From: Cetorhinus maximus
Lineage: Eukaryota
Reading direction: 5' to 3'
Assembly: GCF_964194155.1 (NCBI RefSeq)
Contig: NC_135901.1
Span: 60,760,001-60,824,000 of the forward strand
DNA length: 64,000 nt
Part shown: positions 3,681 through 42,777 of the stretch, in pieces
How positions within the stretch are numbered: position 1 is the stretch's first letter
Layout: each line of letters starts with the position of its first letter
Notes under the pieces: model-generated
Told to the model about the DNA's origin: nothing
Seen by the model: only the letters and a program-made list of their open reading frames with translations
The model's database searches: none
Program-made: the position numbers and the translations under genes

Positions 3681-4192
3681 AGGACGGTGTGTGACTTGCA
3701 GGGGAACTTGGTGGTGATGGTGTGTCACATATATCTACCCTGGTCCTTCCAGGGGGTGGAGGTTGATGTTTCTGGAAACTTTGTCAAAGTTTTTGTTGTG
3801 TTGTAGGTATCCCTTCACCCCCTGCCCCTCCCACCTCTCTCCCTCTCCTCCCTTGTGGGCCAGAGTCTTGTGTAGGCCCAGACTGGGTGGCAGGTTCCCT
3901 TCCCTGAAGGACATTAGTGAACCAGTTGGGTTTTGATGACAATCCAGCAGTTTTCATGGTCACTTTTTCCTCGTGCTGGCCCCACAAATTCCCAGATTCA
4001 TTCAGCTCAATTTCACAACCTGCCTTTGTGTTTTTGTGGGTTCTCTCTCACTCCCTTTTTTCTGTTTTAAATCAATTTCACAGGGTATTAGAAGGGGAGG
4101 ATTTATAGTCAGGAAACTGAAACCAAACATCACTTCAGAATTTGATGGAGTCGGCCATTCTATTGTAACCTGAATATCATTGGATTTTGAAC

Positions 4193-4894
4193 ATGGAAGG
4201 AAAAAACACCATTCTCCGTGGGGAGAAACCGTACACGTGTTCTGTGTGTGGACGAGGCTTCAGCCGATCATCTGACCTGTCAAAACATAAATACAGTCAC
4301 AACGGGGAGAAACCGTGGAAATGTGGGGACTGTGGGAAGGGATTCAATTACCCTTCCCTGCTGGAAATTCATCGGCGCAGTCACACTGGAGAGAGGCCAT
4401 TCTCCTGCTCCGAGTGTTGGAAGGGATTCACTCGGTTGTCCCACCTGTTGACTCACAAGCGAGTTCACACTGGGGAGAGACCTTTCGCCTGCTCTGAGTG
4501 TGGGAAGGGATTTACGGATTCATCCAACCTGCTGACACACCAGCGAGTTCACACTGAGGAGAGACCTTTTAAATGTCCAGACTGTGGGAAGTGCTACATA
4601 AGTTCTGGGAATCTGATGTCCCATCAACGTGTTCACACTGACGAGAGACTGTTCAGGTGCTCTCAGTGCGGGACTGGGTTCAGGTGGTCATCCCATCTCA
4701 CTGAACACCAGCGCAATCACACTGGGGAGAGGCCATTCACCTGCTCAGAATGTGGGAAGAAATTCACTCTGATATCCCACCTGCTGACACACCAGCGAGT
4801 TCACACTGGGGAGAGACCATTCACCTGCTCTGAGTGTGGGAAGAGATTCACTCAGTTATCCCACCTGCTGAGACACCAGCGGGTTCACAAGTAA
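4193..4894 (+). CDS. C2H2 zinc-finger protein, 8 fingers, no effector domain (gene A)
   Basis: [16 protein letters not shown]...HQRVHK*; 8 CX2CX12HX3H fingers with TGERPF linkers; acceptor tttcacag at 4083; AATAAA at 4971 and 4991. Confidence 0.9.
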
Positions 4895-5299
4895 CTACAG
4901 TGATTGGATGTTGTTGTGAAATTCCATCCAGGACAAACCATGTTCATTTGGGGCTGTTTCTGCTGATGTTAATAAACTACAGCCCAGTTAAATAAAAGTC
5001 AAATAAATCAGCTTTGTGTTCAACTCACCGTGTGTCAAGTCTTTTTAATATCTCTAACACAAGTTAGTTCCTTTGGAAGGGCTCTCCCTCTCCCCTGTCT
5101 CCTCCACCCTCACCTCCAACAATAAGTGTGAGGAGTTCATGGAGCTTCTTTGTCACTAAGATTGGGACAATCCGATCATCTGCCTCTGCTGCTTCCCTCC
5201 CTTCCACTATCCCACCGGGACAAACTGTCTCTAAAGTTTCCTCTTGTCTGAGCCCTGAACCCACAGCTTTCTCCAGTTTCTCTCCCATCTCCCCTCATT

Positions 5300-6950
5300 C
5301 TTCCTAAGCAAAAGATAGAGACCTATTCCTATAATATTCAATGCATTTCTGAAGGTTTTATAAGGCTATTAGACAATGATTTCTTACAGATCTCCCCACC
5401 TTGAAAAGGGAAAATCCTTATTGACTTCTCACACCTGATTTCTGACTAACCTCACTATTTCTAAGCTCTGAGCTTGTTTTCCTAATTTCTTGATGACAAA
5501 CCGTAGATAACATACTAAAGCTACTAGAATGATCAGAATCAGCAACACAAACCATTGAGCTGCCACCAAGAATAAATGTCAAAACTTTTCGACTAAAATG
5601 TGATAACTATCGACTGAGATTCATCCTCCCCACCTGCCGATCATCTCACACAATTCTAAATTATAGACATGTTGTAAATACATCTGGTTCAAACAAAAGT
5701 TCATGCACAGACTTTAAAGATTCTCCATCTCTCTGTACACCCGCCTCCACCTTGTGGATATTTTGTAAATCCAGATTCTATTTCCCTCTTCACTTAAACT
5801 TTACTCCCTCTGATAGATACGAGTGTGTTTAATTCAATGCTGATTGTTTTATAGTTAGTTTCACTATAGAGTGTGTGTTAATGTCTTGATGATTTAAAAT
5901 GTCTCATTCAATTTTCCACAATAATCACTTCATGTTCTGTTGTCAAGTAGCTTAGCATGTCTGGGACCTGTTCTTCAGTGCAGGGTCACCATGCACTTCC
6001 ACATGTTAATTACACCACATGTAAGATATCACATCTGCACACACGCTGTATGCCAATACCAAGCTGCATGTGCGAACCTATGCAAGTTGCTCTTGGTCTT
6101 TCAGGTGATCTTATCAAAATATCAATGGGGCGTCTGTCTTTGCTGATCTACCCCTGCCTGGTTCTGATGCCTTGGATAGTGGCCAGACTATCAAATTCAG
6201 TTTCTTTTAAATACAGAGGCAAGGACACAAACATCACCAAGAGAAATCTGTTTACTGGTCTCATCTACACTTCCCTAACTTTCACTAGAATGTACATGTA
6301 TATCAATTTGAACTATTCTATTGAATTATACCCAAGTGAATTATTCCATTTCCCAATTGGTGGTGTGATTTTCTCTATCTTTTATTCTAAATATGTCATT
6401 CCATGAATTACCATTCGATCTCATTCAGGAGCACTCGAGGAACTTTACTGTCCTATTTAATACTCTCATATTAGGGTGTTTGTAGATCAGAGACAGAAGT
6501 ACATGTACTTGCAATCAGATTGTAGATCACTCCCATTTCTCCCATTCTCAGACACTTTGTCTTGAATGATAACAAATGGGATGAAGTCAAATCTCTAAAA
6601 AGCAAAGCCTTTTGTTTAAGTTGTCACCAGGCTGTCAGTGGAAAGGGTTAACTTCTCAGCTTGTTAGCAAAGGGGCTGAAGAAACATTCTCAAATGTGCA
6701 CACTTGTGTCAACTTTATGTAACTTCATTTTCAGATCAAGGATGAACCAAACCCCATTTCAATCTTTGTTTTTCCAATTCTCTTGATATTTTTCTCAGCT
6801 TTTCCAAAATGTTATTTTCTTCTTTCTTCAGGCACCTTTCCAAATGACTGTAATAATAATGAAGAAAAGTAAAACTGAAAGTTCACTTTCACAGGCAAAA
6901 GGAGCTTCAACCTTCTGAGACTGAAAAGAGTTAAAGAGGGTGGAGTTTCC
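5300..6950 (-). mobile_element. LTR element/ERV remnant: decayed env-like ORF, PPT and start of 3' LTR (copy 1)
   Basis: Stop-interrupted minus-strand reading ..LLLPVKVNF..CLKKEENNILEKL..QRLKW..VMFVSLPLY..C..C.., a TM segment near 5480-5560, then aaggtggggagatc-TGTAAGAAATC identical in type to the LTR start at 38801. Confidence 0.6.
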
Positions 6951-7119
6951 CACAGCTTGTGAGCTCCGGAACAGAACCTCAAGGCTGAAGCTTATCTTTA
7001 GGGAATCCAACTTTTCGATGCCTTTTACAATTGTACAAGTTCATTGTGATTCATACTTAAAGGTTTACTTTCACTCAGTAATTATAACCTTTCACTTTTC
7101 TCAGCACAGAAGCTGGCAG

Positions 7120-8080
7120 CATTTTAGATTCAATCCCAATTGTACATTTCTCTTGTAGCTGGCGTATGGAGAAGATCATGTCCACTGTAGATCTGCCAGC
7201 ACAAGAAACCGCACTGTGCTTCTGGATACACTCGGTCTGCAAGTAGATGGAGTCTTTTAAGCCTGACCCTAGTGAAGGACGTCCCTGTGATGCTGAGGAG
7301 TGAGATGTCCCTGTAGTTGTTGCAATCTCCTCTGTCACCTTTCTTTTTGTATATTGTGATCATTCTTCAATCACACACGTGTCCTGTCGAATGGATCCTA
7401 CCTTCCAATAGAGAAGGAGGAGGTCATGAAGGTGTGACAGTAGATGGGACTTTCTGGGCTTGAGCAGTTCAGCTGGAATTCCATCCTTGCCGGGTGTCTT
7501 TCTGCTTGCTAAAAAATCAATGGCCTTTTCGAGCTCAAGTGGTGAGGGTTCCTCATCCAATTCAACCATGACAGGAAGCTGCAAGAGAGAGTCAAACAGA
7601 GACTGGGAGATGTCCTTCTCACAGGAGTACAGCTCACAGCAGTTTCAACCCAGTGGGACATCTGTTTTCTTCTGTGGGTGAGAACTTCAACATCCATTTG
7701 GTGATGGTCGGACCAAGCGCCCTCCTGATCCCATCATACACAGCACGTAGATTTCCATTGTCACAGGCAGTTTGGATTTCATGATCTGGGCTGAACCAGT
7801 GTTTATTTACACAGTCTCTCCCTGTTTTTTACACGACTGTCTCAGCTACTTGCAAGTTACACAGTGTTCTAGCTGTTGGGTTTATGTTGTAATCAGGTAG
7901 GCTTTGCTTTTTGCTTCAATGACAGATTCATCTCTGCTGAGTAGGTCTCAAGCCAGTCTTTGTTGTGGGTTCCACTTTTCCCAAATGCTGTTGCTGCTGT
8001 GTCAGAAATGATTGAACTCAGCGACTTCCAAGATTCAGCAATATCAGTGTTGACTGATGAAGCTTTTACTGATGTGCCTG
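7120..8080 (-). mobile_element. RTE-clade LINE fragment (RT region)
   Basis: ITIYKKKGDRGDCNNYRDISLLS..RVYPEAQCGF..DMIFSIRQLQEKC and KTPGKDGIPAELLK motifs. Confidence 0.85.
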
Positions 8081-8516
8081 TAAAATATTTTACTGTTTTA
8101 TGTTCCTTGATAAATTAATTTCATCATGGAGGTGTCTCTGTGTGGAATGTACAAGTCAGTAAGAATTGTCAGCAAGGATTAATCAGTACTCTCTAATTGG
8201 AGATGTTAATCAATGGAACCTGTCAGACACTGAATTGTAGACTTTGCTCCAAAGATTAATTTAGGATTGAAGTAAAAATTCATAATTTTATTGTAATCGA
8301 GTTCCTGTTGAGAGTTCTGAAATTAAGAGGAAAGTTCACAGATGGTGCTTTTAAAAAGGGACACTGCAGCTCAGATAATCAGTGACAGATCCAGAAAATT
8401 AAACTCCAGCCAGTTATAGGGGTGTTAATATCAGCAGAATCAAAGCTAATACTATCTGACTATCAGTCCTGGATGTGACTAACAGCAGCAGAAATAGCAA
8501 AATCCAATCCCTGCAA

Positions 8517-9275
8517 TCACTTGTGAATTCGCTGGTGTGACAGCAGGTTGGCTGACTGAGTGAATCCCTTCCCACACACAGTGCAGGTGAATGGCCTCTC
8601 TCCAGTGTGAACTCGCTTGTGTACTTTAAGATTAGATAAAGACCTGAACCTCTTTCCACAGGAAGTGCAGCTGAATGGCTTCTCTCCAGAGTGAACTTGT
8701 TGGTGTGACTTAAGGCTGGCTGACTGAGTGAATCCCTTCGCACACACAGAGCAGGTGAATGGCTTCTCCCCAGTGTGAATTCGCTGGTGTGACTGAAGGC
8801 TGGCTGACTGAGTGAATCCCTTTGCACACACAGAGCAGGTGAATGGTTTCTCCCCAGTGTGAACTCGCTGGTGTGCAGTGAGGTCAGAGGAATGCCTGAA
8901 CCTCTTTCCGCAGGAATTGCAGCTGAACGGCCTCTCCTCAGTGTGAATTTGCTGGTGTTTTAGTAGGTTGGAGGACACAGTGAATCCCTTTCCACACACG
9001 GAGCAGGTGAATGGCCTCTCCCCAGTGTGAAATCGCTGGTGTCCACTCAGGTGGGATGAAGACCTGAACCTCTTACCACAGTAAGTTCAACTGAAGGGCC
9101 TCTCCCCAGTGTGACCTCACTGATGTGTCAGCAGAGTGGATGACTGAGTAAATCCCTTGCCACACACGGAGCAGGTAAATGGCTTCTCTCCAGTTTGAAT
9201 ACGTCGATGGCTTCTCAGCAGAGATGGATAATTGAATCCTTTCCCACAGTCCCCACATTTCCACGGTTTCACCAT
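8517..9275 (-). pseudogene. C2H2 ZNF gene B, 9 finger units, two in-frame TGA
   Basis: [10 protein letters not shown].. in frame to ..HQRIHK*; TGA at 9117-9119 (Arg position) and 9087-9089 (Cys position); first finger has H->Q. Confidence 0.8.
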
Positions 9276-11419: not shown

Positions 11420-12735
11420 TCACTATGAATCACTATGATCCTTTAAAAGCGGAGGCTGGTGGGGTGAAAAGTGAGGGGAAGAGCAACCCTATCATGGTTC
11501 TGGGAGTGATAAATAAATGAAACTGGCGATAAGGAGAGCTTTGAGATCGGATGAGTCAGTGCTGCTGGAGGGAGAGATCGAGTGTGTCCATACGGCGGCG
11601 CATGGCACTGAGTGTAGATCTCAGGGTGAGGTGAGAACAGCAGTGCGAGGAGCATTCTATGTCCCGGAGATACCTGTCTTCCTGGGTGGATTCAAAACAT
11701 GAGGGATGGAACTTTAGTTGAATCCACATGGGGTAAGTCAGAGACGGAGACAGTCACTGAGGAAGGAACCATGATAGGGTCCCCCTTGTCTTCACTTATC
11801 ACCCCACCAGCCTCCACATTCAAAGGATCATCCTCCACCATTTCTGCCAACTCCAGCATGATGCCACCACCAAACACATCTTCCCCTCACCACCCCCATC
11901 AGCATTCCATAGGGACTACTCTGGGACACCCTGGTCAATGCCTCCATCACCCCTAACACCTCATCCCCTTTCCAAGGCACCTTCCCTTGCAATCATGAAA
12001 GGTGCAACACCAGCCCCTTTACCACCTCCTTTCTCACTGTCCAAGGGGCCAAATACTCCTCTCCGGAGAAGCAGCACTTCACTTACACTTCCCTCAATTT
12101 AGTCTACTGCATTCGCTGCTCCCAATTCGGTTTCCTCTACATTGGAGAGACCAAATGCAGACTGGGTGACTGCTTTGAGGAACACCTTCGGTCTGTCCGC
12201 AATCATGATACAGACCTTCCTGTCGCTTGCCAATTCAACACACCACCCTGCTCTCATGCCCACATGTCCGTCCTTGGCCTGCTGCAATGTTCCATTGAAA
12301 CTCAACGCAAACTGGAGGAACAGCACCTCATCTTCCGATTAGGCACTTTCCAGCCTTCTGGACTTAATATTGAGTTCAACAACTTCATGGCATGTACTCT
12401 CTCCTCTATCCTCCTCCCTTTTTCACCCATTTAAAAGATTTCATTTTATTTTTTCATTTATTCATGTTTTATTCCCTTTTACATCGTCTTTCATTTTGAC
12501 CATGACATCTTTGTCAATCTCTCCTTAGCCCCACCTATCACTGGCCCTCGATCCAGCTTCACCTGCTCCACCCCCGGCAACCAGCACCTTAAAACAGTAT
12601 ACATTTTGTCACATTTCTACTTCTCTTTAGCTCTGAAGAAGGGTCATACAGACTCAAAGCATTAACTTTGTTTCTCACTCCACAGATGATGTCAGACCAG
12701 CTGAGATTTTCCAGCATTTTCTGTTTTTATCTCTG
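11420..12735 (+). mobile_element. Penelope-like retroelement with GIY-YIG endonuclease and an inverted 5' segment
   Basis: 12088-12387 reads NLVYCIRCSQFGFLYIGETKCRLGDCFEEHLRSV..RKLEEQHLIFRLGTFQPSGLNIEF; 11435-11500 is an inverted copy of 11765-11835; hammerhead-like core at 12633. Confidence 0.85.
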
Positions 12736-12989
12736 AATTACTAGTCTAGTAACAATATCACTATTGCATTGTCTCCCCCTCTTGTGGTAAACTAATTTCT
12801 AATGAGAGTTGCTGAATTATGGGGAAGGTTCAGAGACAGCAGTTCTTAAAGGGACACAGCAGCCCCGAGGACACAACCAGCTATAGATCCAGAATATTAA
12901 ACTCCAGCCCAGTTACAGGGATTATTAACATCAGCAGAAACAAACCCCAACTGTCAGAATGAACATGGTTCAATCCTGGATGTGATTAA

Positions 12990-13230: not shown

Positions 13231-13821
13231 TCACTTGTGAACTCGCTGGTGTCTCAGCAAGTTGGATGACTGAGTGAATTCCTTCCCACACTTGGAGCAG
13301 GTGAATGGCCGCTCTCCAGTGTGAAGTCGCTGGTGTACAATGAGGCTGAATGAAGACCTGAATCTCCTTCCACAAGAAGTACAGCTGAACGGCCTCTCCC
13401 CAGTGTGAATTCGCTGGTGCGTTAGCAGGTCAGATGACTGAGTGAAACCCTTCCCACACTCAAAGCAGGTGAACGGCCTCTCCCCAGTGTGAACTCGCTG
13501 GTGTTTCAGGAGGTTGGATAACTGAGTGAATCCCTTCCCACACTTGGAGCAGGTGAATGGCTTTTCCCCAGTGTGAACTCGCTGATGTTTCAGGAGATTG
13601 GATAACTGAGTGAATCCCTTCCCACACTCGGAGCAGGTGAATGGCCTCTCTCCAGTATGAACTCTCTGATGTGCCAGCAGGCTGGATGACCAAATAAATC
13701 CCTTCCCACACTTGGAGCAGATAAACGGTCTCTCCCCTGTGTGGGTGCGTTGGTGGTTTTCAAGCCAGGATGGGTAATTGAATCCCTTCCCACATTCCTC
13801 ACATTTCCATGGTTTCTCCAT
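13231..13821 (-). CDS. C2H2 zinc-finger protein, 7 fingers (gene C)
   Basis: ACCATGG start; [20 protein letters not shown]; intact fingers and linkers; acceptor ttttacag at 14188. Confidence 0.9.
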
Positions 13822-14187
13822 GGTGCGGGCGTCCCTGTGTCTCTCCAGGTTTGATGATCAGTTGAATCCTTGTCCACACATAGAACACGTGTACAATTTC
13901 CCCCTGCTATGAATGGTGTGATGTTATTTCAGGCTGTGTAACTGGTTAAAGCTCTTTCCACAGTCAGTTCACTGGAACACTCTCACTCGGGTGTGTGTGT
14001 GTCTCGGTGCTTTTCCAGTCTCACTGATGTTTGAAATCTTTTCCCACAGGCAGAACAGACAAACATTTCTCCTTCCACATTTAAAGATCGATGACGTTCA
14101 GTTCCTGTTGAATCGAGTGACAGTGTCAAATCTTGATGTGATGTTTGGTTTGAGTTTCCCGTCCGCAAATCCTCCCCTTCTAATTCT
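13822..14187 (-). other. 5' leader made of a linker and three degenerate zinc fingers, containing a uORF
   Basis: MFVCSACGKRFQTSVRLEKHRDTH / FQ*TDCGKSFNQLHSL / YTCSMCGQGFN*SSNLERH; same layout at 9276-9650 and 36644-37012. Confidence 0.75.
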
Positions 14188-16755: not shown

Positions 16756-17339
16756 ACAGTGATGGAGTTTTTTATAATCTCTTTTTTACAGCTTTTTAAA
16801 AACTTGTTCATGGGATGTGAACATCACTAGCTCAGCCAGCATTTATCGTTGATATCTCTTTGCCCTTGGAAAGGTGGTGGTGAGCTGCCTTCTTGAACCA
16901 CTGCAGTCCATGTGCCATTAAGAAGGGAGTTCCAGGATTTTGACCCAGTGACAGTGAAGGAACGGTAAGATATTTCCAATTCAGGATGGTGAGTGACTTG
17001 AAGGGGAACTTCAATATGGTGGTGTTCCCATCTATCTGCTGTCCTTGTCCTTCTAGATGGTGGTGTGTTTGGAAGGTGCTGTCGAAGGAGCCTTGGTGAG
17101 GATTCGCAGGCGGGAAACTCAAACCAAGCATCACATCAAGATTGGACAGGGTCACACGGTTTATCAAGACCTGAATATAATCGTTCCACTTGCTCCACCC
17201 CTCTTAAACAGTATGAAGTCCATGATATTTCAACTTCTCTTTAGCTCTGAAGAAGAGTCATACGGACTCTAGACGTTAACTCTGTCTCTTTTTCCACAGT
17301 TGCTGTCAGACCTGCAAAGTTTTTCCAGCATCTTGTTTT

Positions 17340-17780
17340 TTTGCCCCCTATAAAGATGGCTGCGGCGCATGCGCCCTGATGCACATTGCCCCCAATAAAG
17401 ATGGCGACCGTTACCCCCGTGTCTGTAACTGGGAGAAAGCTGCGGCCTCGCTCGGTGCAAACAGGGAGACGGACCCCGGGAAGTTCTTTTTCCGGGTTTA
17501 CGGATTACGCAACATGTTTACGAAGCCTCCGCGCCCAACCGCCGGATCTATCGCTCCCTCCGCCCCGCCATTAACCCACTCACCGAACGCGGATCCAAGA
17601 AAGAAACTTCTCTCCATCGCCAAAACTCATACTGCGCATGCTTCACTCCCAGCTCGGCCCCGCCCCTCGTTCATTGCGATTGGTTGGAGGACCAGCCGCT
17701 GCCGCTCGGTCCTCCAGGCCCGCCCCCTCTTCCTATTGGCCCGGAGCTGCCGTCAATCAACCGGGCATTGTGACGGTTTC
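17340..17780 (-). promoter_or_regulatory. CpG island promoter, probably of gene C
   Basis: AAGATGGC twice, GCGCATGCGC, GC boxes and ATTGG (CCAAT) boxes; paralogous to 34440-34690. Confidence 0.6.
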
Positions 17781-27134: not shown

Positions 27135-27944
<810 letters not shown>

Positions 27945-29129: not shown

Positions 29130-30960
29130 AAGGTCACAGTGGGAAAATATTAAAATTAATGGCACTTCACTTAAATGTATGCAGAATTTGTAGCAAGATG
29201 GATGAATTCATAACAATTAGAAAAAATGACTATGATATGATAGTAATAGAGTGTGAAAGTGGCCACAGCTAAGGAATGAAAGATCAAGGCCAGTTTGACA
29301 CTTTGGAAGGAAAGAAAAGGAGGTGGGGTAGCTCTGTTAAAAAAAGATGAGACCAGGACATTGGTGAGAAATGATCTTGGTCTCAATGAACAAAATGTAA
29401 CATCAGCTTGGATGGAGCCAAGAAATTGCAAATAAGACGCTGGTAGGAGTGGTTATAGGCCCCTGATGGTATCTGCAATGTAGGACAGTGTATAAAACAA
29501 TAAATAATGGGGGCTTGTTATAAAGGTGCTGCAATAATCATGGGACATTTTAATTTTAATTTGAATTGGGCCAATAACATTGGATGAATTCATAGAGTGT
29601 ATTCGGGATTGCTTCTTAGAATAATATGTACTGAACCAACTTGGGAACAGGCTGTTTTAGACCTGATAATGTGTGATAGGACAAGATTAATTCATGCCAC
29701 CATAGTACGGGATCCCCTAGATCAGAGTGATCATAACATAATGGAATTTCACAATCACTTCGAGGGTAAGATATGTGGGTCTTAAACTTGTGGGCAATTA
29801 CAAGGGTAGGAAGACACAGTTGGCTCAAGTGGACCGGTAAAATGCATTAGAAGGTAAGACAGTAGAGAAATAGTGGCAAACATTTAAGAAGCTATTTCAT
29901 AACCAGCAAAAGATATATTCCATTGAGAAAGAAAGACTATCTGTCATGAAGGGATATCAATGCATATAATGTTATTGGAAATTATTTAAAATTGGACTTG
30001 TAGCAAGGTCTTTGTGAGAGTGTGTGTGTGTCCTAATTGGATTAAAGTCCGATAGTTTGTGTGCTTTGATGTATAGTAGTTTTGAGATGTTAATTGGGTG
30101 AACAATACGTTAAAAGGTAAAGAGTGCATTCGCATTTTGTTGAATAAACCATTCAAAGACTGGGGGTGAAATCTTGCACCTGACTAGGAGACACCAAGCA
30201 ATATGTTTATATTACTAATAAAATTGGTACTATGAAAGGAGTTTTATTGTTTGGAGAGGTGGAGTTCAAAGGGCCTGGAGATACGATGAGAATATGCATT
30301 CAAAGAGAAGGCTAGGTATATACAGAAGAGTTTTGTGTGAGGAAGTCAGGCATGGAAGATCTAATCCTGTAAGCCTACCATTGTGTTTGCGAAGGACCAA
30401 ATTGAAAGGAACCACATCTTTAATTCATAAGGTAAAATGTGCTTTGCCCAGTGTCTGTTTAAGTCTATGGGTTATTGTTGCCTTGGGGAAGATTACCTGG
30501 GAGTGATTAATTTGAGGATTTGTTTAAAAGTTATTACGGTGGTAATTTGTAGATGTGTTTAATTTCTTATTAAAATTAATAAATGTTTAATTTATATAAA
30601 AAGCCTCTGGAGGCTTGGTGGTTTCATTTCTGAATTCAGAGCTGTATCTCAAACATACCAATTGAAAATATAGGTTATGAAAGTTGTTTAAAGTTCCCTC
30701 TGGGATTTTAAATAACTCAGCCTTTACCAACTGCTATGCCATAACAATCTACAAGAAGGATGCACCACCCATGGCTAACTAAAGAAGTTAAAGGTTGTAC
30801 CATATTGAAAGAAAAGATCCTCAATGCTGTAAATATTAGGGGTAGCCCAGAGGATTAGGAAAATTTTTGAAACCAGCAAAGGGTGACTAGGAAAATGATA
30901 AAGAAGGAGAAATTGGATTACCAGAGAAAAACTAGTAATAAAAATAAGCACAGGCAGTAA
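29130..30960 (+). mobile_element. CR1 endonuclease-region fragment interrupted by a solo LTR
   Basis: GGGVALL, LVGVVIGP, EPTWEQAVLDLI, SDHNIMEF; resumes with HPWLTKEV after 30746. Confidence 0.75.
29942..30746. mobile_element. Solo LTR (Gypsy-like termini)
   Basis: 805-bp insert beginning TGTCATG and ending CATAACA (imperfect inverted termini) that splits a contiguous CR1 sequence; no clean TSD. Confidence 0.65.
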
Positions 30961-31129
30961 AAGGTTCCAAAAGAAGAGTCATACAGACTCGAGATGTTGA
31001 CTCTGTTTATCACGCCACAGATACTGCCAGACCTGCTGAGTTTTAACAGCATTTTATGTTTTTATTTCAGATTTTCAGCATCCGCAATATTTTGCGTTCA
31101 ACTTTTTTAGTTTTATTCTTCTTCAGTTT

Positions 31130-32710
31130 GAAGAAGGAACAAAAAGAATTCAGGTAAAACTGAGTGAAATATGAAAGGAATTGAAAGAACAAAGATTGAA
31201 ATGGGATCACATTCATCCTTGATCTGAAAATGAAGTTACAAAAAGTTGACACAATTGTTCACATTTGAAAATGTTTCTTCAGCCCCTTTTCAAGCAAGCA
31301 GAGAAGTTAACCCTTTCCAATCACAGCATGGTGACAATTTGAAGAAAATGCTTTGCTTTTAAAATATTTGGCTTCATCCCATTTGTTATATTTCAAGACA
31401 AACTGCCTGAGAACAGGAGATGTGGGAGTTATCTCCAAACTGATTGCAAGCACCTGTACTCCTGCCTCTGACCTGTAAACAACATATTATGTGAGTACTC
31501 AATGGAATATAAAGGTCGTCCAGTGCTCCTGAATGAGATAGAATAGTAATTAATGGAATGACGTATTTAGAATAAAAGATAGAGAAAATCACACCACCAA
31601 TTGGGAAATTGAATAATTCACCTGGGTATAGTTCAAGGGAATAGTTCAGTCTGATATACATGCACATTCCAGTCAAAGTCAGGAAAATATAGATGAGGCC
31701 AGTAAATTGATAGATTGAACTTGGTGATGTTTGTGTCCTTGCCTCTGCATATAAAAACTTAATTTGATATCCTGTCCACTATCTGAGGCATCAGAACCAT
31801 GCAGGGGCAGATAAGCAAAGATCTTAAAGCAGAAACCCCTGTGACATTTTGACGAGATCGCCTGAAAGGCTAAGAGTGGCTTGCATAAGTTGGCACATGC
31901 AGCATGCTATTGGGATACGGCATGAGTGTGCAGATGTGATTTGTTATGAGAGGTGTAATTAACATGTGGAAATGCATGGTGACCCTGCATTGAAGAACAG
32001 TTCCCAGACATGCTCAGCTACTTGACAACAGAACAACATGAAGTGACTATTGTGGAAAATTGAATGAGGCAACATTTTAAATCATCAAGACATTGACACA
32101 TACCCCATAGAGAAACTGACTTTCAAACATTCAGGATAGAATTAAACACACTGGTATATAGCAGAGGGAGTAAAATTAATGTGAAGAAGGAAATAGAATC
32201 TGGATGTAGGAAATATCCACAAGGTGGATGCAGGTGAACAGAGAGCTGGAGAATCTTTAAAGTCTGTGCATGAACTTTTAATTGAATCAGATATATTTGC
32301 AACATGCCAATAATTTAGAATTGTGTGAGATGATCGGCAGGTGGGAAAGGTGAATCTAAGTCGATAGTTATCATATTTTAGTGGAAAAGTTTTGACATTT
32401 ATCCTTGGTGGCAGCTCAAGGGTTTGTGTTGCTGAATCTGATCATTCTAGTAGCTTTAGTATGTTATCTACAGTTTGTCATCAAGAAATTAAGGAAAACA
32501 AGCTCGTAGCTTAGAAATAGTGAGGTTTGAAAGAAGTCAGCTCTGAGGAGTCAATATTTCCTTCTCAAGATTGGACAGTGATTTCTCACAGATCTCCCAA
32601 TCTTGTATTGAATGTATTGAATATTATAGGAATAGCGCTCTCTCTCTCTCTCTCTGTGTCTCGCTTAGGAACAAAGATTCCTGGCTTGACAAACATCGGA
32701 CAACATATCC
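31130..32710 (+). mobile_element. LTR element/ERV env-like remnant (copy 2)
   Basis: Colinear with 5300-6830 in reverse; TM segment FVLLNLIILVALVCYLQFVIKKLRK at ~32424-32500. Confidence 0.6.
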
Positions 32711-33601: not shown

Positions 33602-34320
33602 TTACTTGTGAACTCAAATTACTGCTTCAGGTTCGCGTGACTCTTTTGAAGAGGAAGAGCCACACGGACTCAAAACGTTAACTGAATTTCTCTCTCCACA
33701 GATGCTGCCAGACCTGCTGAATCTTTCCAGCACTTTCTGTTTTTATTTCTGTTTTCCAGGATGTTCAGTATTTTGCCTTTATAGTTGTGAACTCATTGGT
33801 GTCTCTGCAGTGTGGATGAACAACAAAATCCCTTCCCACGCTGGGAGCAGGTGAACAGCCTCTCCCCACTGTGACTTCACTGGTGTACAGTAAGGTCAGA
33901 GGATTACCTGAACCCAGACGCACAATGAGAGCACCTCAATGGTCTTTCATCATTGTGAACATATTAATAAGGCATCAGTTCCCTGAAACATTTCTAGCAC
34001 TTCCCACAGCCTGGGCATTTAAAAGGCCTCATCAGTGTGAACTCACTAGTGTGTCTGCAGATGGGACAACTGAGTGAATCCCTTTCCACAGTTGGAGCAG
34101 TTAAACGGTCTCTCGTCAGTGTGAACATGTTGATGGGACATCAGTTCCCCAAACCTTTTAAAGCACTTCACACACTCTGGGCATTAAAAAGGTTTCTTGC
34201 CAGTGTGAAAGCACTGGTGTCTCAGCAGGTGGGATGATATCCTGAACATCTACCACACTGTGAGCAACTGAACAGCCTCTCGCCAGTGTTAATTCAATGT
34301 GTTTCAGCAGGTCAGTCCAA
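33602..34320 (-). pseudogene. Heavily degraded C2H2 ZNF gene F
   Basis: Frameshifted finger remnants ([17 protein letters not shown]); Penelope-like fragment inserted at ~33620-33783; shared 3'UTR at 33440-33600. Confidence 0.75.
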
Positions 34321-37012: not shown

Positions 37013-38269
37013 ATGGAGAAACTGTGGAAATGTGGGGACTGTGGGAAAGAATTCAATTACCCATCCCAACTGGAAATTCATCAATGAAGTCACACTGGAG
37101 TGAGACCATTCACCTGCATTGAGTGTGGGCAGGGATTCACTCAGTCAGCCTACCTACTGAGACACCAGCGGGTTCACACTGGAGAGAGGCCATTCACATG
37201 CCCTGAATGTGGGAAAGAATTCACTGGGTCCTCTGAGCTGCTGAAGCACCAGCGAATTCACACTGAGGCTGTTCAGCTGTACTTCCTGTGGAAAGAGGTT
37301 CAGGTCTTCCTTCCACCTCAAAGTACACCAGCGAGTTCACACTGGGGAAAGGCCATTTACTTGCTCCGAATGTGGGAAGGGATTCATTCAGTCAGCCTAC
37401 CTGTTGAGACATCAGCGAGTTCACACTGGGGAGAGGCCGTTCTCCTGCTCTGACTGTGGTAAGGGATTCACTGGGTCCTCTGACCTCCTGAAACACCAGC
37501 GAATTCACACTGGGGAGAGGCCGTTCACCTGCTCCAAGTGTGGGAAGGGATTCACTCAATATCCAACCTGCAGACACACCAGCGAGTTCACACTGGGGAG
37601 GGGCCTTTCACCTGCTCCGAGTGTGGGAAGGAATTCACTCAGTTATCTCAGCTACTGACGCACCAGTGTGTTCACACTGGAGAGAAACCATTCACCTGCT
37701 CCGAATGTAGGCAAGGATTCACTCATTCAGCTTACCTGCTGAGACACCAGCGAATTCACACTAGGGAGAGGCCATTCACCTGCCCTGAATGTGGGAAGGG
37801 ATTCACTGGGTCCTCTATCCTGCTGAAGCACCAGCGAATTCACACTGAGGAGAGACCGTTCAGCTGTACTTCCTGTGGAAAGAGATTCAGGTCTTCATTC
37901 CACCTCAAAGTACACCAGCGAGTTCACACTGGGGAAAGGCCATTCACCTGCTTCGAGTGTGGGAAGGGATTCATTCAGTCAGCCTACCTGTTGAGACACC
38001 AGCGAGTTCACACTGGGGAGAGACCGTACACTTGCCCTGAATGTGGGAAAAGATTCACTGGATCTTCCGACCTGCGGAAGCATCAGCGAATTCACACAGG
38101 AGAGAGACCATTCACCTGCTCTGACTGCGGGAAGAAATTCACTCAGTTATCTCACCGACTGACACACCAGCTAATTCACACTGGGGAGAGGCCATTCACC
38201 TGCTCCGAGTGTGGGAAGTGATTCACTCAGTCATCCCACTTGCTGGCACACCGGCGAGTTCATAAGTGA
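37013..38269 (+). pseudogene. C2H2 ZNF gene G, ~15 fingers, disrupted
   Basis: GCCATGG start MEKLWKCGDC; TGA at 37085 and 38219; frameshifts near 37268 and 37560; ends HRRVHK*. Confidence 0.85.
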
Positions 38270-38800: not shown

Positions 38801-40130
38801 TGTAAGAAATCACTGTCTAATAACTTATTAAAATCTTCAGAAGTGTTTGGAATATTACAAAACAGCTCTCTCTCTCTTATGAAGAAAGCTTCCATAGCAG
38901 CTTGCTGGCTGACAAACACATAACAGGCCTGTTATCTCTGCCAAGGACATGTCTCTAGCACGGGCCCTGAAATGAGACATTTCTAACCCTGATACGATTG
39001 GATCTCATGACCCAAACGTAAACCAACTGTCTGTGTAAAGGTTAAAACAGGCTCTCGAGAGCACAGAGATATTGACGTGATCCACACTGGCTTCAGCCCA
39101 ATACCCACACTCTGGCTCACACCAGTTAACCGTTCAGAGGAGACTGTCACCACCAGCTACAGAGACCAGCATTCACTCTGTGTCATCCATCCGTTTGTCC
39201 TCCGGGACCAGTAAACCGTTCTCACCTGTCACGGGTCGTGTGTTTTCCTGTCTATTTAGCTTATGCATCATATTTAAACTGTTGCTTCTCAATAAACTAC
39301 TTTAAAATCACTTCTGAGCTCGATCCCCTTTTCAAGTAATCTGTGATTCCCGAACCTAAATCGTACAAGTGGTGTTAGGAGTGGGATCACAGTGCTCGAG
39401 ATCATAGGATTGAGAGGCAACAGTCTTAGTTAAACGTGAATGGAGAAGTTCCTAAGTGAAGCCAGGAGAAGACAATGGCATTAACACATTACAGGGAGCG
39501 ACTGATAGATAGTCTGACAGTAAAAACAGGGGGGCTGGGGGTGAGAGATATCCTGGGGATTGGAGAAGAGTGTGACCGGGATTACGAGTATATCCGCATT
39601 AGGATTTCTAAAGAGGGTCAGAAAGGACAAATTAAGTTGAAGAAGGTCTATAATCAGTTAGAAAATATCCACAAGGAGAATGCAGGTGAACAGAGAGCTG
39701 GAGAATCTTGAAAGTCCGTGCATGAACTTCTGTTTGAACCAGATGTATTTACCACGTCAATAATTTAGAATTGTGTGAGATGATCGGCAGGTGGGGAGGA
39801 TAAATCTAAGTTGATAGTTATCACATTTTAGTGGAAAAGTTTTGACATTTACTCTTGGTGGCAGCTCAAAGGTTTGTGTTGCTGATTCTGATAATTCTAG
39901 TAGCTTTAGTATGTTATCTACAGTTTGTCATCAAGAAATTAGGAAAACAAGCACGTGGCTTAGAAATAGTGAGGTTAGTCAGAAATCAGTTGTGAGAAGT
40001 CAATAAGGATATTCCCTTCTCAAGCTGGGGAGATCTGTAAGAAATCACTGTCTAATAACCTTATAAAGTCTTCAGAAATGTACTAAATATTATAGGAAAA
40101 GATCTTGGCCTGACAAATGTAGGACAACAT
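38801..40130 (+). mobile_element. Internally deleted provirus: 5' LTR, PBS(Leu), gag-like start, env C-terminus, PPT, truncated 3' LTR (copy 3)
   Basis: LTR TGTAAG..CGTACA 38801-39367 with AATAAA at 39291; TGGTGTTAGGAGTGGGAT at 39370-39387; ORF from 39475; LTR start repeated at 40036 after a purine-rich tract. Confidence 0.8.
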
Positions 40131-40981: not shown

Positions 40982-41428
40982 TTACTTGTGAACTCGCTGG
41001 TGTCTCAACAGGTGGGATAACTGAGTGAATCACTTTCCACTCTCGGAGCAGGTGACCGGTCTCTCCGCATTGTGACTGTGCTGGCGTTCAGTGAGCTGAG
41101 ATGACCAACTGGACCCAGTCCTGCACTGAGACCTGAGCGGTCTCTCGGCAGTTTGAACACGCTAGTGTGTCAGCAGGTTGGATGAGGTAGTGAATCCCTT
41201 CCCACATTTGGAGCAGGTGAATGGCCTCTCCCCAGTGTGACTGTGCCGATGAATTTCCAGCTGGGATGGGTAATCAAAGCCCTTCCCACAGTCCCCACAC
41301 TTGCACAGCTTCTCCCTGTTGTGAGTGCTCTTATATTTTGACAGGTCAGATGATTGGCAGAAGCCTCGTCCACACACCGAACACGTGTACGGTTTCTCCC
41401 CACTGTGAACGGTGCTTTTTCCTTCCAT
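40982..41428 (-). pseudogene. C2H2 ZNF tandem copy H2, disrupted
   Basis: [16 protein letters not shown]..; TAG at 41162-41164; downstream fingers are frameshifted and end HQRVHK*. Confidence 0.8.
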
Positions 41429-41478
41429 GTTCAAAATCCAATGATATTCCAGCTTATTAACAGATTATTGTATTAACA

Positions 41479-41871
41479 TCAGCAGAAACAGGTGAACGGC
41501 CTCTCCTCAGTGTGAGTTCGCTGGTGTACAGTGAGATGAGATGATTGCCTGAACCCAGTCCCACAGTGAGAGCACCTGAACGGTGTCTCGTCAGTGTGAA
41601 CACGCTGATGGGACATCATTGCACCAGAACTTATAAAACATTTGCCACAGTCTGAGCATTTAAAAGGTCTTTTATCAGTGTGAACTCGCTGGTGTTTCAG
41701 CAGGGTGGATGAATCAGTGAATCCCTTCCCACACTTGGAGCAGGTGAACGGTCTCTCCCCAGTGTGACTGTGTCGATGAGTTTCCAGCTCAGACGGGAAT
41801 CTGAATCCCTTCCCACAATCCCCACATTTCCACAGTGTCTCCCCACTGTGAACGGTGCCTTTTCCTTCCAT
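41479..41871 (-). CDS. C2H2 ZNF gene H1, 4 fingers, C-terminally truncated
   Basis: [26 protein letters not shown]; open frame, but the fifth finger runs into the 3'UTR motif tgtttctgctgatgttaata, implying a deletion; acceptor near 41978. Confidence 0.6.
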
Positions 41872-42777
41872 GTTCAAAATCCGATGATATTCAGGTCACA
41901 AATTAGGCGACTCCGTCAGATCCAGATGTGATGTTTGCTTTGAGTTTCCTGACTGCAAATCCTCTCCTTCTAATACCCTGTGAAATTGATTTAAAACAGA
42001 AAAAGGTGAGTGAGAGAGAACCCACAATAACAGGTTGTAAAATTGAGCTGAATGAATCTGGGAATTTGTGGTGCTGCCACTAGCTATAAGTGACCATGAA
42101 AGCTGCCAGATTGGAATAAAAATTCAACTGCTTCACTAATGTCCTTCAGGGAAGGGAACCTGCCAACTGGTCTAAGCCTACACAGGACTCTGGCCCACAA
42201 GGGAGCAGAGGGAGAGAGAGGTGGGAGATGTAGGAGGTGAAGGGATATCTACAACATAACAAGAACTTTGACAGAATCTCCAGAAACCTCAACCAACTAG
42301 AAGGACCAGGGTGGCAGGTGTGTGTGAACACCATCACCTCCAAGGTCCCCTCCCTGTCACACACTGTCCTGACTTGTCTGGATGAACAGAAATTTCCTCC
42401 ATTTAAATATTGGGAAGATTGAAGCCATTGTCTTCAGTCCCCGCTACAAACTCCACTCCCTGACCACTGGCTCCATCCCTCTCCCTGACAACTGTCTGAG
42501 GCTGAACCAGACATTCATAGGGACATAGGAGTAGGCGTAGGCCATTCAGCCCATTGAACCTGCTCCACCATTCAATCTGATCAAAGTCTTTTTCCCACAC
42601 TATCCACATATCCCTTTAAGTAATTGCTCAACCTGTCATCCATTCCTTTGTTCTTCTAGTGTAACTATCCTAACACTCACCCGGCAGGCCTCCCACATTC
42701 AGCCTCCCTGTAATCCAGAACTCTGATTACTCACACCAAGTTTTGTTCACCCCTGTACTCACTGACTTACAAAGGCT

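What the first reader, a model, noticed from the sequence alone, without database searches (positions are those of the whole stretch)
5300..6950. Decayed env with a paramyxovirus-F-like layout in an LTR element: candidate lokiretrovirus-like ERV in a cartilaginous fish
Seen: the minus strand, read through stops and frameshifts over ~500 codons, gives in order LLLPVKVNF..C..helical EENNILEKL..ELEKQRLK(W), then LVMFVSLPLY..FDSLATIQGI..ILIRS..TC..RVC..CGVINMWKC..GPRHAKLL..C, then a hydrophobic TM segment with a basic tail, then PPT and LTR. Inference: RLK(TGG) could be a CpG-decayed RLKR furin site, and the V-S-L-P strand plus Cys ladder recall Mononegavirales class I F proteins rather than gamma-type TM (no ISD/CX6CC visible). 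Established, from memory: lokiretroviruses carry F-like env and were reported from lampreys, bony fishes, amphibians and reptiles; I do not recall a chondrichthyan report. No pol is present, so the lineage cannot be fixed from this window.
Basis: partly seen in the sequence, partly recalled or inferred. Interest (0 to 1): 0.72.

Follow-up and report, generated by a model that had tools for sequence, protein, structure and literature searches.

The report
Shark retrovirus fossil, F-type envelope family
This is a long-dead, rearranged scrap of an endogenous retrovirus, likely in a shark, whose relatives carry a snakehead-virus-type polymerase rather than a lokiretrovirus one and an envelope predicted to fold like measles/RSV fusion proteins; one intact envelope gene elsewhere in the genome was likely adopted by the host.

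Summary
The LTR element is real, but the '500-codon env' is a mosaic: an AT-rich stretch X1 (5660-7140), an integrase scrap (5578-5656, weak), an env membrane-anchor stub (5390-5530), PPT and LTR stub. Window copies A, B and C are probably duplicates of one old insertion in a zinc-finger cluster. The family is dispersed genome-wide. Relatives with pol have an RT closest to snakehead retrovirus (48% identity; foamy, epsilon, gamma and delta 28-38%) and lack the loki RT motif, so this is not a lokiretrovirus. The family's env is predicted to have a paramyxovirus-F fold (Foldseek E 5e-6, partial model), so 'F-like' holds for the family. Whether X1 itself is F-like is only weakly supported (p 0.02-0.08; no Pfam hit, no ORF signal). 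SnRV-like ERVs in chondrichthyans are published. This scan noted the same RT/env combination in four earlier notes on other DNA. Best lead: an intact 754-codon env with no LTR pair or pol nearby, conserved in other species with a third-position bias, a candidate domesticated gene.

The parts
5298..5388 (-). 3' LTR stub of copy A
   Evidence: 77% to the start of the LTR at 38801
5391..5402 (-). polypurine tract
   Evidence: sequence; same motif before the 3' LTR of dispersed copies
5390..5530 (-). env membrane-anchor and basic-tail stub of the SnRV-clade family
   Evidence: nhmmer E 6e-21 to env of pol-bearing copies; 10.7 bits vs 0.8 best shuffle with the env profile
5578..5656 (-). integrase-core scrap (weak to moderate support)
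   Evidence: nhmmer E 0.0035; blastn E 0.002 and 6.5e-4 to integrase regions of L279 and L292; clear integrase peptide at the same place in copy L291
5660..7140 (-). X1: AT-rich stretch shared by the pol-less subfamilies, beginning at the junction after the RT start; 3' part possibly a decayed F-type env
   Evidence: best profile match ends at 5991, p 0.02-0.08
31129..32645 (+). copy B, paralogue of A
   Evidence: 83.5% identity, shares the downstream flank with C
38801..39367 (+). 5' LTR of copy C
39370..39387 (+). primer-binding site (tRNA-Leu assignment recalled, not tested)
39475..39657 (+). start of gag, cut by an internal deletion
   Evidence: same peptide starts gag in L182, L178 and L234
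39658..40105 (+). X1 end, integrase scrap, env stub, PPT and 3' LTR stub of copy C
   Evidence: 91% to A

Best explanation
The segment is a dead, internally deleted copy of an LTR retrovirus family whose pol-bearing members have an SnRV-type RT and an envelope predicted to have the paramyxovirus-F fold; this copy likely belongs to a non-autonomous lineage that was moved by helper viruses and later multiplied with a zinc-finger gene cluster. Shown: LTRs, PBS, PPT, gag with coiled coil and zinc knuckle, protease, RT, tether, RNase H and integrase in relatives; shared 3' anchor stub. Inferred: a template-switch deletion replaced most of pol with X1 and left only scraps of integrase and env. The stops were already shared before the lineages spread, so the element spread in trans without a working env. 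X1's 3' part is likely (about 55%) a fragment of a second, older F-type env. In the parent virus, entry would have worked as for class I F proteins: furin cleavage, fusion peptide, heptad-repeat refolding (established knowledge applied to a predicted fold).
For: Dispersed copies on 22 contigs among 40 scored; paired LTRs at 76-88% identity; 4-bp target duplications, perfect in 2 and near-perfect in 1 of 9 copies. Pol domains in L234: RVT_1 E 4.8e-13, RT_RNaseH 1.8e-4, RNase_H 2.1e-10, zf-CCHC 0.0016. RT of L233: 48% and 113 bits to SnRV against 28-38% and 56-78 bits to 39 foamy, epsilon, gamma, delta and other references. Tree: the shark rows fall on the SnRV side of a 97/95 split, and grouping with foamy is rejected at p-AU 0.005. 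Intact family env: all listed PDB matches at E<=1e-3 are paramyxo- or pneumovirus F, apart from foamy Env at 1e-3. All 30 of 30 A-like loci share the upstream flank and 24 of 30 the downstream flank. X1-bearing copies end in different env remnants, which fits recombination with different helpers.
Against: No lokiretrovirus row could be put in the tree; the loki comparison is by eye. In one search the two Gypsy-like outgroup rows fall inside the SnRV-side group (long branches), so the tree is not clean. The env model has pLDDT 55, pTM 0.35 and TM-scores of 0.15-0.21. Neither the intact env nor SnRV env hits PF00523 or PDB by sequence. The X1 match vanishes under the loosest of three gap settings, and its references share copies. 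The shared-stop test missed real pol (p 0.43) and rang on the antisense strand in 3 of 9 cases. The link between pol and copy A runs through other copies (shared LTR, gag start, anchor stub), not through A itself.
Confidence: 0.8

Rival explanations
1. A lokiretrovirus in a cartilaginous fish, with 5300-6950 as its env.
For: F-type fold in the family; dual RNase H; coiled-coil gag; nearest proteins are named NYNRIN-like; by eye some X1 motifs resemble the Loki-Xtr env printed in the supplement.
Against: RT motif and identity: by eye about 58 of 118 residues identical to SnRV against 43 of 118 to Loki-Lch; 24 of 24 loki rows have PFG where this family has PQG. An integrase scrap lies between X1 and the anchor.
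Confidence: 0.05
2. The family assignment is right, but X1 is not env at all: it is captured non-coding or unrelated DNA, and the F-like motifs are chance.
For: 62-64% AT against 52-55% for gag, pol and env. No shared-ORF signal in 4 of 4 references and no third-position bias between lineages. No Pfam hit in any frame tested. No intact version among 150 scored hits.
Against: The best match to the family env profile ends at the same Cys-cluster column in 4 of 4 X1 references, p 0.016-0.08 under two of three settings; gag control p 0.6-0.75. The test has little power: true env against SnRV env reaches only p 0.05.
Confidence: 0.4
3. X1 plus the anchor are one diverged F-type env of an SnRV-clade virus, and the integrase similarity is spurious.
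For: In L395 an env C-terminal remnant (profile columns 615-737) starts right after X1, roughly collinear with the X1 match.
Against: Integrase similarity appears with independent loci, and L291 shows a clear integrase peptide at that place.
Confidence: 0.15

Closest known systems
Snakehead retrovirus (SnRV) clade / clade Huo, including CmiERV lineage I of the elephant shark (PMC4422223)
   Same: RT 48% identical with the same motifs. Env has a Cys-Pro motif, a basic site followed by GL(G/A)E and a long heptad region like SnRV env (weak sequence match).
   Different: Env is 754 aa against about 1130; no 3' accessory ORFs seen; different PBS; most copies lack pol; insertion X1.
Lokiretroviruses (PMC7947760)
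   Same: F-type env, tether plus RNase H, coiled-coil gag
   Different: RT motif and identity; 0 of 6 chondrichthyan genomes positive in that paper's table
Foamy and epsilonretrovirus envelopes
   Same: Foamy Env (PDB 8rm1, E 1e-3) and the WDSV and WEHV-1 predicted env (E 2e-7, 9e-6) match the model
   Different: RT 28-36%; grouping with foamy rejected; zinc knuckle present here
Non-autonomous LTR elements such as zebrafish Bhikhari (bioRxiv 2024.03.25.586437)
   Same: pol-less, mobilised in trans, coiled-coil gag
   Different: Bhikhari is described as loki-derived and recently active; this family is old and decayed

Membership tests
Lokiretrovirus | RT groups with the loki clade | tested here: not met
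   Motif and by-eye identity against 24 supplement rows; SnRV much closer; no loki row in the tree
Lokiretrovirus | Env with F-glycoprotein similarity | tested here: met
   Family env by fold; not by PF00523; window X1 inconclusive
Lokiretrovirus | RXKR site followed by a fusion peptide in the window segment | tested here: not met
   Trp in 28 of 28 readable copies; the site is present in the intact family env
Lokiretrovirus | Tether plus RNase H | tested here: met
   shared with all retroviruses, so not diagnostic
Lokiretrovirus | Integrase sister to CGIN1/NYNRIN | not tested
   No integrase tree built; nearest proteins are only named NYNRIN-like
SnRV clade (Huo) | RT groups with SnRV | tested here: met
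   with the long-branch caveat
SnRV clade (Huo) | Env homologous to SnRV env | tested here: inconclusive
   tblastn E 0.014, frameshift-aware p 0.05, shared motifs
Gamma-type env | ISD and CX6CC in TM | tested here: not met
   No Pfam hit and no such motif in the intact env; fold matches F
Foamy viruses | RT in the spumavirus clade, no Cys-His box (the second feature recalled) | tested here: not met
   p-AU 0.005; CCHC knuckle present
Domesticated env (C7:31.58 Mb) | Intact ORF, no provirus around it, orthologues, purifying selection, expression | tested here: inconclusive
   ORF intact; no gag, pol or LTR pair in 19.5 kb; orthologue-like contigs and third-position bias; synteny and expression not shown

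The most novel reading that the evidence does not exclude
SnRV-clade retroviruses use a paramyxovirus-F-fold envelope, as do foamy viruses, lokiretroviruses and apparently epsilonretroviruses, so F-type is the widespread envelope of aquatic retroviruses. Sharks domesticated one such env as a conserved host gene (G000 C7:31.58 Mb), a possible fusogen or antiviral factor. The window's X1 is a second, older F-type env captured into the same family.
Probability: 0.5. Interest if true: 0.75.

Novelty: new variant of a known kind. Interest (0 to 1): 0.5.

Why it matters
The window fossil itself is ordinary decay. Two things around it matter. First, an F fold is not diagnostic of lokiretroviruses: it occurs with an SnRV-type polymerase, which bears on whether F-type or gamma-type env is ancestral in retroviruses. 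Second, an intact env conserved across several species would be a testable candidate for a syncytin-like or restriction gene in cartilaginous fishes. My searches listed no paper calling SnRV-clade env F-like or reporting a domesticated shark env. Most subscription papers are not held, and the cartilaginous-fish foamy paper PMC9972966 could not be read.

Tried and rejected
Pfam on single frames of A, B, C and relatives: no relevant hit. PF00523 search of the genome was blank but insensitive. Word-based protein searches with frame P0002 and with L182 gag were blank. Single-sequence fold of SnRV env failed (pLDDT 34) and its search found only itself. Sequence searches of PDB with env were blank. 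The idea that X1 is hypermutated pol was rejected by nhmmer. X1 against SnRV env and the L391 env: no signal, p 0.17-0.9. The protein atlas gave no answer. No RNA holder is on record for the intact env; this is no evidence either way. The exact C7 protein is not in the protein collection. The metagenome scan gave one short hit. LTR dating: K2P 0.11-0.16, or 0.08-0.13 without CpG, in 9 pairs. That is roughly 190-300 My at the 2.2e-10 rate assumed in PMC4422223, or 40-65 My at 1e-9, so only 'old' is safe.

Full report
Observation. Copies B (31129-32645, 83.5%) and C (38801-40105, 91% over its 3' part) are homologous. C keeps a 5' LTR, a PBS and the start of gag, then jumps to the 3' end. Pfam finds nothing relevant in the nine sense frames of A, B and C.

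Local copies are duplicates. A DNA search scored 40 of 1160 candidates, nearly all on C24. All 30 fetched loci share A's upstream flank and 24 share the downstream flank. Most C-like loci also share their flank. About 50 stops per frame recur across 18 clustered copies in all three frames, so the sequence was broken before the zinc-finger cluster duplicated it. The proposed furin site reads Trp in all 28 readable copies of 30.

The family. A PBS pattern led to independent insertions and then to copies on 22 contigs. These are about 5 kb long, with paired LTRs and 4-bp target duplications where readable (3 of 9). Less deleted copies show gag with a coiled coil, a capsid-like region and a CCHC knuckle, then protease and the first residues of RT, after which X1 begins. 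That gag hits a Xenopus protein at E 1.4e-5. Searching with the capsid region found pol-bearing copies. L234 has RT, tether, RNase H and integrase and ends in the same anchor stub as A (73%).

Lineage. The RT's nearest proteins are frog 'NYNRIN-like' (52-56%) and coelacanth (47%) entries. A viral-contig scan returned one genome, L298, 10,688 nt long. I identify it as SnRV from the length given in PMC12193657 and from the RT row in the Wang and Han supplement. L233 RT scores 113 bits (48%) to it against 56-78 bits to 39 other retroviral references. The tree separates the shark, SnRV, frog and coelacanth rows from foamy, epsilon, gamma and delta at 97/95, and rejects a foamy grouping at p-AU 0.005. 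However, two Gypsy-like rows fall inside that group, three shark rows are single-frame fragments, and no loki row was available. All 24 loki RT rows read in the supplement have PFG where these copies and SnRV have PQG. SnRV-like ERVs are already reported from the elephant shark (PMC4422223).

The family's env. Six pol-bearing copies share a 2.1-kb env with a clear ORF signal (p 0.003 in 2 of 2 references). A protein search found an intact 754-codon relative on C7. Folded with 32 natural rows, it gave a partial model (pLDDT 55, pTM 0.35). Its PDB matches are RSV, NDV, hPIV3, henipavirus, mumps and hMPV F (best E 5.5e-6; 38 at E<=1e-3), with foamy Env at 1e-3. Viral models add WDSV and WEHV-1 env and baculovirus F. 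TM-scores are low, and no sequence method detects the link.

What the window segment is. DNA profiles of pol and env hit A only at an integrase-core scrap (5578-5656, E 0.0035) and the anchor stub (E 6e-21). The scrap is backed by blastn hits to two pol-bearing loci and by a clearer integrase peptide in L291. X1 is AT-rich and has no shared-ORF signal (p 0.24-0.61 in 4 references; 0.08 after 18 more loci were added). That test also missed real pol (p 0.43). A frameshift-tolerant comparison with a 119-row env profile puts X1's best match at the Cys cluster (column 543, window 5991): p 0.03-0.06, 0.02, and 0.016-0.08 in four overlapping references under two settings, but not significant under a third. 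By eye the order S-L-P, I-G, V-C-R-C-D, C-G, C-x-V and G-x-x-H-A agrees with the family env. I put X1 as decayed F-type env at about 55%. No intact X1 was found among 150 of 487 candidates.

Mechanism. Inferred history: an SnRV-clade virus with an F-type env entered the germ line; template switches produced pol-less lineages carrying X1; helpers copied them in trans, leaving different env remnants at their 3' ends; one insertion near a zinc-finger gene was then multiplied by segmental duplication. Nothing at 5300-6950 can code today.

Side finding. The C7 env has no gag, pol or LTR pair within 19.5 kb. Runs of other coded organisms hold it. Three of four laid runs show no gap, and one contig of the fourth has a 4-nt insertion. 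Of the 40 differences listed, out of 368, 25 are at third positions (p 1.5e-4). Synteny, stops in the orthologues and expression were not shown.

Papers seen. PMC7947760: main text parts 1-2 of 4, a term search, supplement parts 67-68 and table rows; the supplement is held cut. PMC4422223: part 1 of 2. Passages only: PMC12440569, 10.1101/2023.10.26.564294, PMC11089739, 10.1101/2024.03.25.586437, 10.1101/2021.11.23.469661, PMC11468914, PMC12193657, 10.1101/2024.03.17.585361, PMC6001957, PMC12386078. PMC6669660 (co-opted foamy env in geckos): search listing only; it means the C7 gene would not be the first co-opted F-fold env. bioRxiv supplements were not seen. Four earlier notes of this scan report the same RT and env combination on other DNA; I had reached the SnRV reading before seeing them and tested the fold afterwards. 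The host, tRNA-Leu, HE1 and RTE labels are recalled.

Verdict. Not a lokiretrovirus; a decayed mosaic of an SnRV-clade ERV family with an F-type envelope. New variant of a known kind; interest 0.5, carried mostly by the F fold and the candidate domesticated env.

Noticed in passing
L329:901-3198 (-), G000 C7:31.58 Mb: Intact 754-codon F-type env (signal peptide, RKRR, fusion peptide, anchor) with no gag, pol or LTR pair in 19.5 kb. Matching contigs in four other coded organisms; one 4,782-nt contig spans it with 214 differences and no gap. 25 of the 40 listed differences (of 368) fall at third positions, p 1.5e-4. One contig of organism C has a 4-nt insertion. Candidate domesticated gene.
   Followed up: partly
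G000 C24, dozens of places from 36 to 65 Mb (e.g. L374, L377): A second env relic, about 30% identical to the family env, amplified many times in the same cluster.
   Followed up: no
BFVD matches of the env model: WDSV and WEHV-1 envelope models match at E 2e-7 and 9e-6, suggesting that epsilonretrovirus env also has the F fold.
   Followed up: no
window 4169-4894, 8517-9086, 13231-13857, 27285-27944, 37088-38221, 41162-41895: Dense cluster of C2H2 zinc-finger exons; the ERV scraps sit between convergent zinc-finger 3' ends and were copied with them.
   Followed up: partly
window 7141-8120 (-): LINE RT fragment (RTE type by recalled motifs) abutting copy A where the 5' part of the element is missing.
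   Followed up: partly
window 30973-31098, 12638-12763, 17252-17377, 33654-33779: Repeat whose tail resembles the elasmobranch HE1 SINE / HER1 LINE (recalled); with the 4.0-Gb genome, this is the only basis here for calling the host a shark or ray.
   Followed up: no
L182 (G000 C7:38.82-38.83 Mb): One element carries a nearly open gag, part of X1, a family env ectodomain and more X1: a recombinant.
   Followed up: partly
L370, L371 (G000 C1:176.47 Mb, C14:56.28 Mb): Divergent env lineage (26-29% to the intact env) with long open frames.
   Followed up: no
window 29955-30750 (+): Unrelated solo-LTR-like insert (TGTTA...TAACA) inside a CR1-like fragment.
   Followed up: no
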